Source: Candidatus Omnitrophota bacterium
GTDB taxonomy: Bacteria > Omnitrophota > Gorgyraeia > Gygaellales > Profunditerraquicolaceae
Assembly: GCA_016867175.1 (NCBI GenBank)
Contig: VGKF01000001.1
Coordinates: 1-29,136 of the forward strand
Length of the DNA stretch: 29,136 nucleotides
Direction: 5' to 3'
Made by a program: the position numbers and the translations under genes. A model generated the notes under the pieces. It did not search any database and was not told the origin of the DNA. It saw only the letters and a list, made by a program, of their open reading frames with translations. Of this stretch, positions 23,577-25,571 are shown in pieces (within the stretch, counting starts at the first letter, position 1; each line of letters opens with the position of its first letter).

Positions 23577-23659
23577 TGCCGAGGGAGGGAGTTGAACCCT
23601 CACGAGTGTGACCTCACCAGTTTTTGAGACTGGCGTGTATGCCATTCCACCACCTCGGC
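23577..23659 (-). tRNA. tRNA-Leu(CAA), CCA not encoded
   Basis: GCCGAGG acceptor stem, CCAGT-CTCAAAA-ACTGG anticodon arm, long variable arm, GGTTCAACTCC T-arm. Confidence 0.95.
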
Positions 23660-23668
23660 AATAATTAG

Positions 23669-23697
23669 TTGACGTAGACTATTTTATATTCTAAAAT
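23669..23697 (+). promoter_or_regulatory. Sigma70 promoter for tRNA-Ala
   Basis: TTGACG-17 nt-TAAAAT. Confidence 0.7.
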
Positions 23698-23709: not shown

Positions 23710-23727
23710 TATATAATTAAATTTTTT

Positions 23728-23799
23728 GGGGCTGTAGCTCAGAGGGAGAGCATTTGCATGGCATGCAAAGGGTCGAGGGTTCAAGTCCCTCCAGCTCCA
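23728..23799 (+). tRNA. tRNA-Ala(GGC), CCA not encoded
   Basis: GGGGCTG/CAGCTCC acceptor stem with G3:U70, TTTGC-ATGGCAT-GCAAA anticodon arm, GGTTCAAGTCC T-arm. Confidence 0.95.
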
Positions 23800-24479
23800 T
23801 TTTTTATTATTGTCTCGCCGATTGATTGTAATTCGAATTGAAGAGTAGTATCGTAATAAATCAGACGTCCTACCCCATAGTATTTTTTTCTTAGCGTCGG
23901 CTTACACCTAGTTCTTATATCCGGCTGGCTTTTTAAAAATTTTGATTTTGGGATTTTGATTAGCTTTGACCAGAAGGTTTTTAATTTCTGGTAATTTTGG
24001 TCATAACGATAACTGATACTAAATCTTAATTTATTTTCGTCAATATTATAATACCTTCTTAAGGAGCGGAGGAAGAAACAAACCATTTTGGGGTCGGAAT
24101 TCCCGAAATATAGGTACCTGGAACTCGGATATTTTGCTCCTTCACATAAATATAATAATCCGCATATTAATTTTCCACTCTCTGGATCTTTAGAGGCATA
24201 TTTCTCAAAATGTTTTACCTCTTCTCTTATGCCCGCTTTCCATTTCTCTATTTTTTCCCGGTTAACTTTTACAGCCAGAGGTCTGCCTATAACCCCAGAA
24301 GCGATTATTTTTTCTTTTATGCGTTGTTTTTGTATCTTGCTAAGTTGAATATCTTTCACCCAACCGGAAAGGGTATTTTTAGGGATATTCAGTTTTCTTT
24401 TAATCTCTTCTAGTGACCGGCCGCATTTCCTTAAATGACGCACCTCTTGTTTTATTATTCTTGGATATATTTTTCGCAT
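23781..24479 (-). CDS. HTH plus LAGLIDADG-like protein (putative free-standing homing endonuclease or derivative), convergent on and overlapping tRNA-Ala
   Basis: SD GGAGGAG; N-terminal HTH (LRKCGRSLEEIKRKLNIPKNTLSGW); LICGLLYLCEGAK helix; FGNSDPKMVCFF; the last codons are the antisense of the tRNA 3' end. Confidence 0.7.
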   Translation of the reverse strand: MRKIYPRIIKQEVRHLRKCGRSLEEIKRKLNIPKNTLSGWVKDIQLSKIQKQRIKEKIIASGVIGRPLAVKVNREKIEKWKAGIREEVKHFEKYASKDPESGKLICGLLYLCEGAKYPSSRYLYFGNSDPKMVCFFLRSLRRYYNIDENKLRFSISYRYDQNYQKLKTFWSKLIKIPKSKFLKSQPDIRTRCKPTLRKKYYGVGRLIYYDTTLQFELQSIGETIIKNGAGGT

Positions 24480-24539
24480 TTTTCTCCTCCCATATTAATA
24501 GACGCAGAACCTCAAGCCTTCTCACTAAAATTTCGGGTG

Positions 24540-24571
24540 CGGGCAAAATTTGGTGCGGAAAATTTTGCCCG
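24540..24571. repeat. Perfect 12-bp inverted repeat
   Basis: CGGGCAAAATTT-ggtgcgga-AAATTTTGCCCG. Confidence 0.8.
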
Positions 24572-24597
24572 TAGGTTTCAAAGCGTTGTTGTATATG

Positions 24598-24627
24598 AGG
24601 GGGCGGGATTTTAGTTCCGCCCCTTTT
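24598..24627 (+). terminator. Probable plus-strand rho-independent terminator
   Basis: GGGGCGGGA-ttttag-TTCCGCCCC followed by TTTT (short U-tract). Confidence 0.55.
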
Positions 24628-24646
24628 AGCTATATTAACTATAGCC

Positions 24647-24674
24647 TTGACCGCCTTGTTCTAGGGTGTATAAT
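24647..24674 (+). promoter_or_regulatory. Sigma70 promoter of the nfo-leuS operon
   Basis: TTGACC-16 nt-TATAAT. Confidence 0.6.
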
Positions 24675-24725
24675 AGGCGTAAATTATTATTAAAAATAAG
24701 TTTCTAGAAATCCATACCCGCTAAA

Positions 24726-25571
24726 ATGATCTTAGGCGTACATGTTTCCGGAACCGATAATGCCTACCAGGCGCTTGATGTGGCGCATAAGCTTGGGTGC
24801 AATACCATGCAGATCTTTGCGCGTAATCCACAGAGGTGGCGCGACAATTTTATAGGCCCTAAAGATATAGAAGAATTCAACCGCAGGCAGGAAAAGCTAA
24901 AGATCAGCCCGGTATTTATTCATATTTCCTATTTGATCAATCTAGCCTCTCCCAACCCCAGGCTATACGCCGGTTCGATAGATGCATATATAGAGGATAT
25001 CTTGGAGGCCCAGGCTATGAAAGCGGATTATATAGTCACGCATATGGGCAGCCATAAGGAGACCTCTGAAGAGGCAGGGATAGAAAGATTAATTGAAGCG
25101 CTTAACCAGATCTTAGAAAAGACCAAAAACTCTTCCGTTGGTATATTGCTCGAAAATACCTCCGGTTCCGGATCCTGGTTAGGTTATAAATTCAGCCACC
25201 ATAAAGAGATTATTAAGGGGATCAAGAATAAGGGAAGGATTGGCTTATGCCTGGATACTGCGCATGCGTATCTGGCAGGCTATAATCTGGCGGCCAAGGC
25301 AGGATTCGAGGGGTTGTTATCTGAGATAGATAAAATGGTAGGGATAGGCCTGATTAAGCTTATACACCTTAATGACGCCAAGGGAACGCTCGGTTCGCAT
25401 CAGGACCGGCATGAGCATATCGGTAAAGGCAGCATCGGTTTAGAAGGCATCAAAAGGATAGTCAATCATCCTAAATTAAGAAACCTGCCTTTTATTCTAG
25501 AAACTCCTAAAAAAACCGAGCAGGACGACGCCATGAATCTAAAAACAGTGAGAAGGTTAAGGCAGGAATAG
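24726..25571 (+). CDS. nfo: Endonuclease IV (AP endonuclease)
   Basis: LGVHVS, MQIFARNPQRW, HISYLINLAS, LLENTSG, CLDTAH, HLND, DRHEHIG and ILETP motifs. Confidence 0.96.
   Translation: MILGVHVSGTDNAYQALDVAHKLGCNTMQIFARNPQRWRDNFIGPKDIEEFNRRQEKLKISPVFIHISYLINLASPNPRLYAGSIDAYIEDILEAQAMKADYIVTHMGSHKETSEEAGIERLIEALNQILEKTKNSSVGILLENTSGSGSWLGYKFSHHKEIIKGIKNKGRIGLCLDTAHAYLAGYNLAAKAGFEGLLSEIDKMVGIGLIKLIHLNDAKGTLGSHQDRHEHIGKGSIGLEGIKRIVNHPKLRNLPFILETPKKTEQDDAMNLKTVRRLRQE

What the first reader, a model, noticed from the sequence alone, without database searches (positions are those of the whole stretch)
23781..24479. HTH-LAGLIDADG-like gene docked tail-to-tail on tRNA-Ala, with its stop codon inside the tRNA
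Seen: this is the only credible minus-strand CDS in 29 kb, with a strong SD. Its final codons (NGAGGT*) are the antisense of the tRNA acceptor stem and T-arm. It has an N-terminal HTH and one LAGLIDADG-like helix (LICGLLYLCEG) with an acidic residue at the catalytic position; no integrase, intron or att duplication is visible. Known: single-motif LAGLIDADG enzymes are homodimers that cut pseudo-palindromes, and tRNA genes are conserved, palindrome-rich targets. From memory (unverified), similar proteins recur beside tRNA genes in Patescibacteria-like genomes. Inference: a family of free-standing, intron-less selfish endonuclease genes that home to tRNA 3' ends without disrupting them, or a domesticated tRNA-locus DNA-binding protein. 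This is the best candidate for an undescribed system in the window.
Basis: partly seen in the sequence, partly recalled or inferred. Interest (0 to 1): 0.78.

Follow-up and report, generated by a model that had tools for sequence, protein, structure and literature searches.

The report
Homing-endonuclease-like gene docked on tRNA-Ala
A small optional gene for a DNA-binding, LAGLIDADG-type nuclease-like protein has been inserted flush against the alanine tRNA(GGC) gene of this Omnitrophota bacterium. It belongs to a large unannotated family in which each branch sits beside one particular tRNA gene, which points to selfish nuclease genes that use tRNA genes as landing sites.

Summary
A 232-aa minus-strand ORF (23781-24479) with a GGGAGGAG ribosome-binding site runs 19 nt into the 3' end of tRNA-Ala(GGC) (23728-23799), and its TGA stop lies in the antisense T-loop.

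The protein is a Tc3/paired-type HTH, a helical linker and one divergent LAGLIDADG-like domain. The motif Glu-Gly is over 90% conserved family-wide.

The gene is optional. The rlmN-GDSL-tRNA-Leu-tRNA-Ala-nfo-leuS locus lacks it in 25 of 26 related loci I could assess, including a same-genus genome. It sits between the tRNA and the tRNA's old terminator, is AT-rich, is under purifying selection (dN/dS about 0.16), has decayed copies elsewhere, and is a recombinant mosaic with a breakpoint at the LAGLIDADG motif.

Of 80 family copies, 78 lie within 150 bp of a tRNA gene, against 2.8% of ordinary ORFs. Clades match tRNA isoacceptors with the minimum possible number of switches.

The overlap with the tRNA is a by-product of a flush junction. 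Docking at the 3' end in antisense is a derived state; most relatives sit just upstream of the tRNA 5' end.

Best reading: a free-standing homing endonuclease gene specific for tRNA-Ala(GGC). Cleavage and target site are inferred, not shown. I found no paper describing this. Earlier notes of this scan report the same theme on other genomes.

The parts
23728..23799 (+). tRNA-Ala(GGC) gene. It is intact, has the G3:U70 pair, and has no encoded CCA (A73 is followed by TTTTTT).
   Evidence: Rfam RF00005, 66.5 bits, model positions 1-71. Most tRNA genes of this genome also lack an encoded CCA, and a PF01743 CCA-adding-type gene is present.
23781..24479 (-). HTH-LAGLIDADG-like ORF, 232 aa: the optional gene.
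   Evidence: It is 100% identical to P0001 and 56-82% identical to about 120 Omnitrophota proteins annotated as hypothetical.
24345..24479 (-). Residues 1-45: three-helix HTH of the Tc3 / Sleeping Beauty PAI / Hin-resolvase type.
   Evidence: VIA-align gives Z 5.5 to 1tc3_C, 2r0q_C and 8b4h_A. A family profile matches the Sleeping Beauty PAI subdomain at E 4e-4. Pfam HTH_23 matches 21 of 56 homologues.
24192..24344 (-). Residues 46-96: long helical linker.
   Evidence: The AF2 model has helices at 48-61, 65-87 and 89-94.
23802..24191 (-). Residues 97-226: divergent single LAGLIDADG-like domain.
   Evidence: The domain model has pLDDT 94.9. All 9 PDB representatives with Z of 5 or more are LAGLIDADG proteins: WhiA 7.3, I-DmoI 7.1, E-DreI 6.8, and others. 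Pfam LAGLIDADG_3 matches 3 of 56 homologues, best E 3.2e-5.
24138..24173 (-). Motif KLICGLLYLCEG (K103-G114). E113-G114 lie at the C-terminal end of the first helix of the domain. This is also the recombination breakpoint.
   Evidence: E113 and G114 are invariant in the subfamily and at least 90% conserved across homologues of 28-67% identity. Nucleotide identity to the nearest relative drops from 95-100% to 63-75% at about 24138.
23781..23801 (-). Non-conserved tail N227-T232 plus the TGA stop, encoded by antisense tRNA acceptor stem and T-arm.
   Evidence: pLDDT is below 50 for residues 230-232. Tails differ among homologues.
24484..24491 (-). Shine-Dalgarno sequence GGGAGGAG.
   Evidence: Read from the sequence.
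24495..24528 (-). Two upstream boxes conserved among tail-to-tail copies (TTGTTAGAAA-like, about 15 nt, CGTCTATTAT). Candidate promoter or operator of the gene.
   Evidence: Comparison of 170 nt upstream of the start codon in about 15 loci. The consensus scan found no canonical sigma-70 promoter here.
24540..24571 (.). Perfect 12-bp inverted repeat with an 8-nt spacer, inside the inserted segment. Role unknown.
   Evidence: It folds at -19.9 kcal/mol with z -4.6.
24597..24626 (+). GC-rich terminator-like hairpin followed by UUUU. Probably the displaced terminator of tRNA-Ala, marking the far edge of the insertion.
   Evidence: -22 kcal/mol, z -3.8. Empty sites have the same kind of hairpin 2-12 nt after the CCA and just before the nfo promoter.
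24647..24674 (+). nfo promoter (TTGACC, 16 nt, TATAAT). Homology with the same-genus empty locus resumes at about 24638.
23577..23659 (-). tRNA-Leu(CAA), divergent partner of tRNA-Ala. The pair is conserved with or without the inserted gene.
   Evidence: Back-to-back promoter-like sites lie at 23669-23697 (+) and 23709-23681 (-).

Best explanation
This is a free-standing homing-endonuclease gene (HEG) of a clade specific for tRNA-Ala(GGC), with no intron and no intein. The protein has an N-terminal Tc3/paired-type HTH, a helical linker and one LAGLIDADG-like domain. SHOWN: (1) the fold and the conserved Glu-Gly at the end of the LAGLIDADG helix; (2) an insertion of about 800 bp (about 23800-24596) between position 73 of tRNA-Ala and the tRNA's former terminator, in a locus that is otherwise syntenic and empty in most relatives; (3) clades of the family are each locked to one tRNA isoacceptor; (4) purifying selection on intact copies alongside decayed copies; (5) recombination between divergent alleles. 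INFERRED: the protein dimerises through the LAGLIDADG helices. The HTH and the beta-sheet face read the end of the tRNA-Ala gene (acceptor stem with CCA, plus the adjoining flank). Alleles without the gene are cut at that boundary, and repair from an occupied allele copies the gene in. The very conserved tRNA would serve both as the recognisable half-site and as a homology arm, and the resident copy would be immune because the flank half is replaced by the gene's own 3' end. The stop codon inside the tRNA is a by-product of the spacer-free junction, not a functional device. Because the two acceptor-stem strands are complementary, both ends of the tRNA gene look alike from outside (|GGGGCYG at the 5' end, |GGAGCYG at the 3' end). 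That could explain why related genes dock with their 3' end against either the 5' end (ancestral) or the 3' end (as here) of the same tRNA.
For: FOLD. All PDB representatives with Z of 5 or more are LAGLIDADG proteins, for both the whole model and the domain model. LAGLIDADG_3 matches 3 of 56 homologues. E113-G114 are at least 90% conserved.

OPTIONAL INSERTION. Of the 26 other loci of the same taxonomic family that I could assess, 25 have tRNA-Ala followed directly by CCA, a hairpin, and nfo or leuS. This includes the same-genus genome G429. A terminator-like hairpin now lies on the far side of the gene. GC is 35-37% in the gene against 43-48% in the flanks.

PATCHY DISTRIBUTION. Any family member was found in 63 of 401 Omnitrophota genomes, and the Ala-type in 13. 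Several copies are riddled with stops, and others are split or reduced to remnants (L010, L017, L027, L029, L030, L034, L035).

tRNA LINKAGE. 78 of 80 copies lie within 150 bp of a tRNA, against 25 of 891 ORFs in the window's own genome. On the tree, 15 tRNA labels need only 14 changes, the minimum possible, against about 41 in shuffles. Six of six distant homologues (29-38% identity, in other genomic contexts) overlap or abut a tRNA 5' end: four Ala(GGC) and two Arg(GCG). The second paralogue in this genome lies 11 nt downstream of tRNA-Val(GAC).

ALLELE EXCHANGE. Nucleotide identity to the nearest relative is 95-100% over 23778-24137, 63-75% over 24138-24720, and 83-98% again in nfo. The N-terminal half is 98% identical to P0002 but the C-terminal half only 65%; the C-terminal half is 96% identical to P0003 but the N-terminal half only 64%.

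SELECTION. Median dN/dS is 0.16.

PRECEDENT. T4 SegB is a free-standing endonuclease in a tRNA gene cluster whose 27-bp site contains the T-psi-C stem-loop motif (PMC2330249).
Against: No cleavage, DNA binding or dimerisation has been shown. The target site is not identified. Some occupied loci keep the CCA and a terminator hairpin between the tRNA and the gene (L003, L007, L012, L040), so a site that spans the tRNA end would be intact there. Identity of the gene to the window's copy is never far above that of the flanking housekeeping genes, so no long-range horizontal transfer is demonstrated. The pattern fits vertical descent plus many losses plus local allele exchange. The fold match is modest (Z at most 7.3, about 85 of 135 residues aligned) and Foldseek gives no significant LAGLIDADG hit. 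The best structural match, WhiA, is a non-catalytic transcription factor. No canonical promoter was found. No relatives were found on viral contigs.
Confidence: 0.6

Rival explanations
1. A domesticated, WhiA-like DNA-binding protein. On this reading a former endonuclease now binds the tRNA-Ala locus, for example to regulate tRNA or neighbouring-gene transcription or to block other elements that integrate at tRNA ends, and it does not cut DNA.
For: WhiA is the top structural match (Z 7.0-7.3). Purifying selection is strong (dN/dS 0.16). The gene has stayed at one locus for a long time, and its divergence tracks that of the flanking genes. Conserved palindromic and boxed elements lie upstream.
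Against: The gene was not found in about 85% of the Omnitrophota genomes searched and is absent from the syntenic site of the same-genus genome whose locus I examined. Decayed copies are common. The catalytic-position Glu-Gly, which WhiA lacks, is retained across the whole family. Paralogous clades occur beside a dozen different tRNAs within single genomes, which is hard to reconcile with a housekeeping regulator.
Confidence: 0.2
2. An RNA-level role: a maturase-like or tRNA-binding protein acting on the neighbouring tRNA transcript, as LAGLIDADG maturases act on group I introns.
For: Most family members lie in the same orientation as the tRNA and within 50 nt of it, so they are probably co-transcribed with it. 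A group I intron occurs elsewhere in this genome in a tRNA cluster.
Against: tRNA-Ala here has no intron and looks fully canonical. Here the gene is antisense to the tRNA. The N-terminal domain is a DNA-binding HTH of the transposase type. Relatives whose locus lacks the gene (the empty sites) keep the same tRNA.
Confidence: 0.05
3. A remnant or cargo of an integrase-mediated island that integrated into the tRNA 3' end.
For: tRNA 3' ends are classical attachment sites, and the gene is AT-rich relative to its flanks.
Against: The insertion is only about 800 bp and carries one gene. There is no integrase and no direct repeat of the tRNA 3' end. The same gene family also docks at tRNA 5' ends.
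Confidence: 0.02

Closest known systems
Phage T4 SegB, a free-standing GIY-YIG homing endonuclease in the T4 tRNA gene cluster (PMC2330249)
   Same: Both are free-standing endonuclease genes lodged among or against tRNA genes, and both are optional between relatives. SegB's recognition site includes a conserved tRNA motif (the T-psi-C stem-loop), and it spreads by intronless homing with co-conversion of flanks.
   Different: The catalytic fold is different (GIY-YIG versus LAGLIDADG-like). SegB is phage-borne, whereas this gene sits in a bacterial chromosome. SegB is a single characterised gene, whereas here a whole family has clades each tied to one isoacceptor. Activity is proven for SegB and not for this protein.
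Homodimeric single-motif LAGLIDADG homing endonucleases (I-CreI, I-MsoI, I-CeuI) and the I-DmoI / LAGLIDADG_3 type
   Same: All share a LAGLIDADG-type core with the acidic residue followed by Gly at the end of the interface helix. A single domain implies a homodimer and a pseudo-palindromic site.
   Different: Those enzymes are encoded in introns or inteins and lack an extra DNA-binding domain. This protein has an N-terminal HTH and linker, is free-standing, and is structurally divergent (Z 4-7, about 85 residues aligned; Pfam does not recognise it).
WhiA / DUF199 (two degenerate LAGLIDADG domains plus a C-terminal HTH)
   Same: It is the best structural match, and it also combines a LAGLIDADG fold with an HTH in a bacterial chromosomal gene.
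   Different: WhiA has two LAGLIDADG domains, its HTH is C-terminal, it lacks the catalytic acidic residues, and it is a conserved core gene. Here there is one domain, the HTH is N-terminal, the Glu is conserved, and the distribution is patchy.
LAGLIDADG endonucleases in insertion sequences of rRNA genes of CPR bacteria (PMC11270868; I read only the title and abstract)
   Same: Both are LAGLIDADG endonuclease genes exploiting highly conserved RNA genes in bacterial lineages described as ultra-small.
   Different: Those lie inside the rRNA gene as intervening sequences. This one lies outside the RNA gene, flush with its end, and leaves it uninterrupted.

Membership tests
LAGLIDADG endonuclease superfamily | A LAGLIDADG-type alpha/beta core fold. 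| tested here: met
   All chains with Z of 5 or more among 48,161 PDB representatives are LAGLIDADG proteins. This holds for the full model and the domain model with pLDDT 94.9. The match is modest (Z at most 7.3, rmsd about 3 A, 84-89 residues), and Foldseek alone is not significant.
LAGLIDADG endonuclease superfamily | An interface helix ending in a conserved acidic residue followed by Gly. | tested here: met
   The helix spans residues 99-113 and ends in E113-G114. The pair is invariant in 32 subfamily members and at least 90% conserved in 56 homologues of 28-67% identity; the family consensus is L..LYLxEGxK.
LAGLIDADG endonuclease superfamily | Sequence-level match to a curated LAGLIDADG model. 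| tested here: inconclusive
   The window protein has no match. PF14528 LAGLIDADG_3 matches 3 of 56 homologues below or near threshold, best E 3.2e-5. A profile search of PDB sequences finds only the HTH.
LAGLIDADG endonuclease superfamily | Mg-dependent site-specific double-strand DNA cleavage. | not testable with these tools
   This needs purified protein and substrates.
Free-standing homing endonuclease genes (intronless homing) | Presence/absence polymorphism at a homologous site between relatives. | tested here: met
   25 of 26 assessable syntenic loci of the same family are empty, including a same-genus genome. The Ala-type gene occurs in 13 of 401 genomes of the phylum.
Free-standing homing endonuclease genes (intronless homing) | A life cycle of invasion, decay and loss, with exchange between lineages. 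| tested here: met
   Copies with multiple stops and remnants exist. Alleles are mosaic, with a sharp breakpoint. Intact copies are under purifying selection. Long-range transfer is not shown.
Free-standing homing endonuclease genes (intronless homing) | The enzyme cuts the allele that lacks the gene near the insertion point, and the resident allele is resistant. | not testable with these tools
   The target is only inferred from the junctions.
WhiA family | Two tandem degenerate LAGLIDADG domains followed by a C-terminal HTH, near-universal in the lineages that have it. | tested here: not met
   Here there is one domain, the HTH is N-terminal, and the distribution is patchy. Pfam HTH_WhiA matches only 2 of 56 homologues, weakly.
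tRNA-targeting integrase islands | An integrase plus a direct repeat of the tRNA 3' end bounding the insert. | tested here: not met
   There is no such repeat in 23720-24730, and I saw no integrase among the ORFs next to the gene. The insert holds one gene.

The most novel reading that the evidence does not exclude
The HTH-LAGLIDADG superfamily (more than 2,400 clusters at 50% identity, almost all unannotated) may be a general class of nucleases specific for tRNA gene ends, whose clades co-evolve with individual tRNA isoacceptors across bacterial phyla. By recognising the acceptor-stem end of the gene, which looks alike from both sides, they could dock at either end of a tRNA gene. They could then drive tRNA-locus change in small genomes: loss of the encoded CCA, displaced terminators, reshuffled tRNA neighbourhoods, and possibly replacement of the tRNA gene itself.
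Probability: 0.3. Interest if true: 0.8.

Novelty: new variant of a known kind. Interest (0 to 1): 0.68.

Why it matters
Free-standing homing endonucleases are known mainly from phages and organelles. The one well-studied link to tRNA genes is T4 SegB. Here a very large, unannotated bacterial protein family shows a near-absolute, isoacceptor-specific linkage to tRNA genes in chromosomes of bacteria with genomes of about 1-2.6 Mb. If the proteins are active, three things follow. They would be a natural collection of nucleases that read different tRNA gene sequences. They would explain some odd features of tRNA loci in these genomes. And they would show that tRNA genes serve as landing sites for homing endonucleases as well as for integrases. 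For annotation, the result gives a name and a likely role to thousands of 'hypothetical proteins'.

Tried and rejected
HOMODIMER PREDICTION. The LAGLIDADG domain (residues 95-229, two copies) scored 0.38 against a mark of 0.42, so there is no verdict. This counts neither for nor against dimerisation.

FOLDSEEK AGAINST PDB. With the whole model and the domain model there was no significant hit. The top rows were OmpA-like/YfiB domains at E about 0.02 with poor TM-scores. I rejected these as a generic alpha/beta resemblance.

ALANYL-tRNA SYNTHETASE RESEMBLANCE. One orthologue (P0057) matches Pfam tRNA-synt_2c at E 1.3e-5, below the cut-off. P0158 matches the same profile region at E 0.22. Foldseek lists an AlaRS fragment at E 0.47. 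This was tempting for a tRNA-Ala-linked protein. However, a profile comparison of the family domain with this genome's own AlaRS N-terminus gives a probability of 0.4%, and BLASTP gives E 0.55-1.7. I rejected it as a local helix-strand-helix resemblance.

VIRAL CONTIGS. No relative of the Ala-type subfamily was found in IMG/VR. The wider alignment was too diverse to scan.

att-LIKE DUPLICATION. No duplicate of the tRNA end was found.

SPLIT-PALINDROME IDEA. I considered whether the gene split a palindromic trailer hairpin that starts in the CCA of empty sites. A possible right arm (AAATTTGGTG at about 24545-24554, and CCACCA upstream of the gene in L006) is no more than chance would give, so I did not pursue it.

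FASTER tRNA DIVERGENCE AT OCCUPIED LOCI. tRNA-Ala genes at occupied loci look more divergent than those at empty loci. I did not use this, because the empty loci were fetched by similarity to the window's own tRNA, which biases the comparison.

LITERATURE. Five searches found no description of tRNA-docked HTH-LAGLIDADG genes.
Full report
OBSERVATION. The ORF 23781-24479 on the minus strand encodes 232 aa. It is preceded by GGGAGGAG four bases before the ATG. Rfam places tRNA-Ala(GGC) at 23728-23799 on the plus strand with a full-length 66.5-bit match. tRNA-Leu(CAA) lies at 23577-23659 on the minus strand; ARAGORN's coordinates for both are one base off. The ORF and tRNA-Ala converge and share 19 bases. 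Codons 228-232 and the TGA stop are antisense to the acceptor stem and T-arm. All other minus-strand ORFs of 110 aa or more lie inside plus-strand genes. The tRNA has no intron, and no repeat of the tRNA end flanks the gene.

THE PROTEIN. Pfam and NCBIfam give only sub-threshold HTH hits. An AF2 model built on 32 orthologues (pLDDT 86) shows three parts: a three-helix HTH (residues 7-40), long linker helices (48-94) and an alpha/beta domain (97-229). An exhaustive structural comparison against 48,161 PDB representatives matches residues 97-229 to LAGLIDADG domains and residues 1-45 to Tc3, Hin, resolvase and IstA-type HTHs. I then modelled the domain alone on 56 diverse homologues (pLDDT 94.9). 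With that model all nine chains with Z of 5 or more are LAGLIDADG proteins: WhiA 7.3, I-DmoI 7.1, E-DreI 6.8, the TliVMA intein endonuclease 6.7, I-Tsp061I 5.9, and others. I-MsoI, PI-SceI, I-CeuI, PI-PfuI and I-CreI follow further down the list. The match is modest (about 85 of 135 residues aligned, rmsd about 3 A), and Foldseek alone is not significant. The domain is therefore a divergent LAGLIDADG fold. At the sequence level, PF14528 LAGLIDADG_3 matches 3 of 56 homologues, best E 3.2e-5. The first helix of the domain ends in E113-G114. These residues are invariant in the subfamily and at least 90% conserved across homologues of 28-67% identity, where the consensus reads L..LYLxEGxK. A family profile matches the Sleeping Beauty PAI subdomain through the HTH, E 4e-4.

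THE FAMILY AND ITS LINK TO tRNA GENES. The protein has about 240 close relatives, those with names all from Omnitrophota and all annotated as hypothetical. An exhaustive phmmer search finds 2,406 clusters at E of 1e-3 or better, mostly about 225 aa long. In 36 loci from species-representative genomes, nearly every copy abuts tRNA-Ala(GGC). I then fetched 60 further copies found by a phylum-wide search. Of 80 copies with a tRNA in the fetched stretch, 63 lie within 50 bp and 78 within 150 bp of a tRNA gene. In the window's own genome the figures for ORFs of 150 aa or more are 16 and 25 of 891. On a maximum-likelihood tree of 84 copies the nearest-tRNA label has 15 states: Ala GGC, Val TAC, Glu CTC, Lys CTT, Arg CCT, Arg TCT, Pro TGG, Pro CGG, Tyr GTA/Thr TGT, and others. 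These labels need only 14 changes, which is the minimum possible, against 40-43 changes in the ten label shuffles printed out of 200 run. I looked up six distant homologues (29-38% identity) on metagenome contigs with other neighbours, and all six overlap or abut the 5' end of a tRNA. Four are Ala(GGC) and two are Arg(GCG). The window's genome holds a second, distant paralogue 11 nt downstream of tRNA-Val(GAC). The partner that persists across contexts is therefore the tRNA gene and not any protein-coding neighbour.

THE GENE IS AN OPTIONAL INSERTION. The order rlmN, GDSL, tRNA-Leu(CAA), tRNA-Ala(GGC), nfo, leuS is conserved across the taxonomic family. In 24 of 25 other loci that could be assessed, tRNA-Ala is followed directly by CCA, a short A-rich spacer, a terminator hairpin, and nfo or leuS. 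The same-genus genome G429 also lacks the gene; there nfo is 87% and leuS 83% identical to the window's. In the window a strong terminator-like hairpin (24597-24626, -22 kcal/mol) sits just before the nfo promoter (24647-24674). This is exactly where empty sites have the tRNA's terminator, but here it lies on the far side of the gene. The inserted segment is thus about 23800-24596. It is AT-rich, 35-37% GC against 43-48% in the flanks. Phylum-wide, any family member was found in 63 of 401 genomes and the Ala-type in 13. Several copies carry many stop codons, and others are split or reduced to remnants beside the tRNA.

THE JUNCTION. In tail-to-tail copies the conserved coding sequence ends at ...LQFELQSIGETIIK, 0-4 nt from the tRNA 3' end. 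Deep branches keep the encoded CCA (L016, L022, L028, L046). The window's lineage has lost it. A few copies have a hairpin between the tRNA and the gene (L003, L007, L012, L040). The C-terminal tails differ with wherever a stop happens to fall. The overlap is therefore a by-product of a spacer-free junction. The loss of CCA is unlikely to disable the tRNA, because most tRNA genes of this genome lack an encoded CCA and a PF01743 nucleotidyltransferase gene is present. A nested Omnitrophota clade, the distant homologues and most other subfamilies have the gene in the same orientation as the tRNA, ending 5-50 nt before or overlapping its 5' end. The 3'-end antisense docking seen here is therefore derived. 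In both arrangements the gene's 3' end faces the acceptor-stem end of the tRNA gene.

MODE OF INHERITANCE. Identity of the gene to the window's copy falls roughly in step with that of leuS, nfo, GDSL and rlmN on the same contigs. I therefore see no long-range transfer; vertical descent with frequent loss explains much of the pattern. Alleles are exchanged, however. Against the closest relative (L001; nfo 95%, leuS 91% amino-acid identity), nucleotide identity is 95-100% over 23778-24137. It drops to 63-75% with indels over 24138-24720 and returns to 83-98% in nfo. At protein level the window's N-terminal half is 98% identical to P0002 while its C-terminal half is only 65% identical. Conversely, its C-terminal half is 96% identical to P0003 while its N-terminal half is only 64% identical. 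P0002 lies in a different upstream context. The breakpoint falls at the LAGLIDADG motif. Intact copies are under purifying selection, with median dN/dS 0.16 over 31 pairs.

INTERPRETATION. A LAGLIDADG fold with a retained catalytic-position Glu, an extra DNA-binding domain, optional presence at a fixed site, decay and allele exchange together fit a free-standing homing endonuclease gene best. The strict clade-to-isoacceptor linkage points to the end of the tRNA gene as its recognised site. The closest characterised precedent is T4 SegB, whose 27-bp site contains the T-psi-C stem-loop motif of tRNA genes. Nuclease activity, the dimer, the target and the immunity of the resident allele are all inferences. 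Occupied loci that keep the CCA and a hairpin argue that the site cannot simply be the tRNA end plus its immediate flank in all lineages. The main rival is a domesticated WhiA-like DNA-binding protein. That reading is favoured by the purifying selection and the long residence at one locus, but disfavoured by the patchy distribution, the pseudogenes and the conserved Glu. One consequence is worth testing: tRNA-Ala has lost its nearby terminator, so read-through from its promoter would produce an antisense RNA across the whole gene.

WHAT IS KNOWN. Five full-text searches found SegB, LAGLIDADG genes in CPR rRNA insertions, and organellar or phage cases. None described tRNA-docked HTH-LAGLIDADG genes. 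Earlier AI notes of this scan describe the same theme in Patescibacteria, DPANN and Omnitrophota windows. I treated these as leads only. The clade-per-tRNA claim and the presence/absence claim were tested independently here.

Noticed in passing
G000 contig C23, L038:1285-1848 (+): A second, distant paralogue in the same genome (187 aa, HTH plus the motif LAGLMLYWAEG). It starts 11 nt after tRNA-Val(GAC), in a Cys-Leu-Val tRNA cluster upstream of thrS.
   Followed up: partly
G000 contig C43, L135:322-611 (+): A group I intron (Rfam RF00028, 102.6 bits, E 2e-27) lies between tRNA-Thr(TGT) and tRNA-Gly(TCC), where tRNA-Tyr usually sits. ARAGORN finds no tRNA-Tyr anywhere in this 89%-complete genome, so tRNA-Tyr may be intron-split. 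No family member is next to it.
   Followed up: partly
L100, L106, L111, L112, L114, L125 (empty tRNA-Ala sites), first ~40 nt after the tRNA: The trailers form AT-rich palindromic hairpins whose left arm begins in the CCA end, for example CCACCAAATTTTTCT-GACAA-AGAAAAATTTGGTGG. The arms differ between genomes but stay complementary. L106, L111 and L112 then share GGCACTAAAGCGAGCG. Function unknown.
   Followed up: no
L009, L014, L016, L019, L021, L028-L030, L043, L044, L047-L049, L051, L053: A second, very different form of tRNA-Ala(GGC), with D-arm GTGAAGCGGGATCAC and anticodon stem CGACAATGGCATTGTCG. In my biased sample it occurs only at loci occupied by the gene. One example is L030, whose flanks resemble those of family-f1 genomes that otherwise carry the canonical form.
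   Followed up: no
window 24540-24571: A perfect 12-bp inverted repeat (CGGGCAAAATTT, 8 nt, AAATTTTGCCCG) lies 61-92 nt upstream of the gene's start, inside the inserted segment.
   Followed up: partly
window 24495-24528 and the equivalent positions in L002-L017: Two conserved boxes lie upstream of tail-to-tail copies: TTGTTAGAAA-like, about 15 nt, then CGTCTATTAT, 8-10 nt before the Shine-Dalgarno sequence. The spacing does not fit a standard -35/-10 pair.
   Followed up: no
L139:1552-1625 and L140:753-825: Two distant family members abut a tRNA that ARAGORN calls Arg with anticodon GCG, which I believe is unusual for bacteria (not checked).
   Followed up: no
G075:C49:102-788 and G181:C3:79684-80349: Two otherwise full-length Ala-type copies each carry a single in-frame TGA. 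The L010 copy is likewise interrupted by one in-frame stop codon, whose identity I did not check. I did not determine whether these are early decay, sequencing error or read-through.
   Followed up: no
L129:75-1230 (same-genus genome G429): At the site where the window has the endonuclease-like gene, the same-genus genome has a different insert of about 1.1 kb with an unrelated ORF between tRNA-Ala and nfo. The tRNA-Ala 3' flank therefore appears to be a hot spot for insertions.
   Followed up: no
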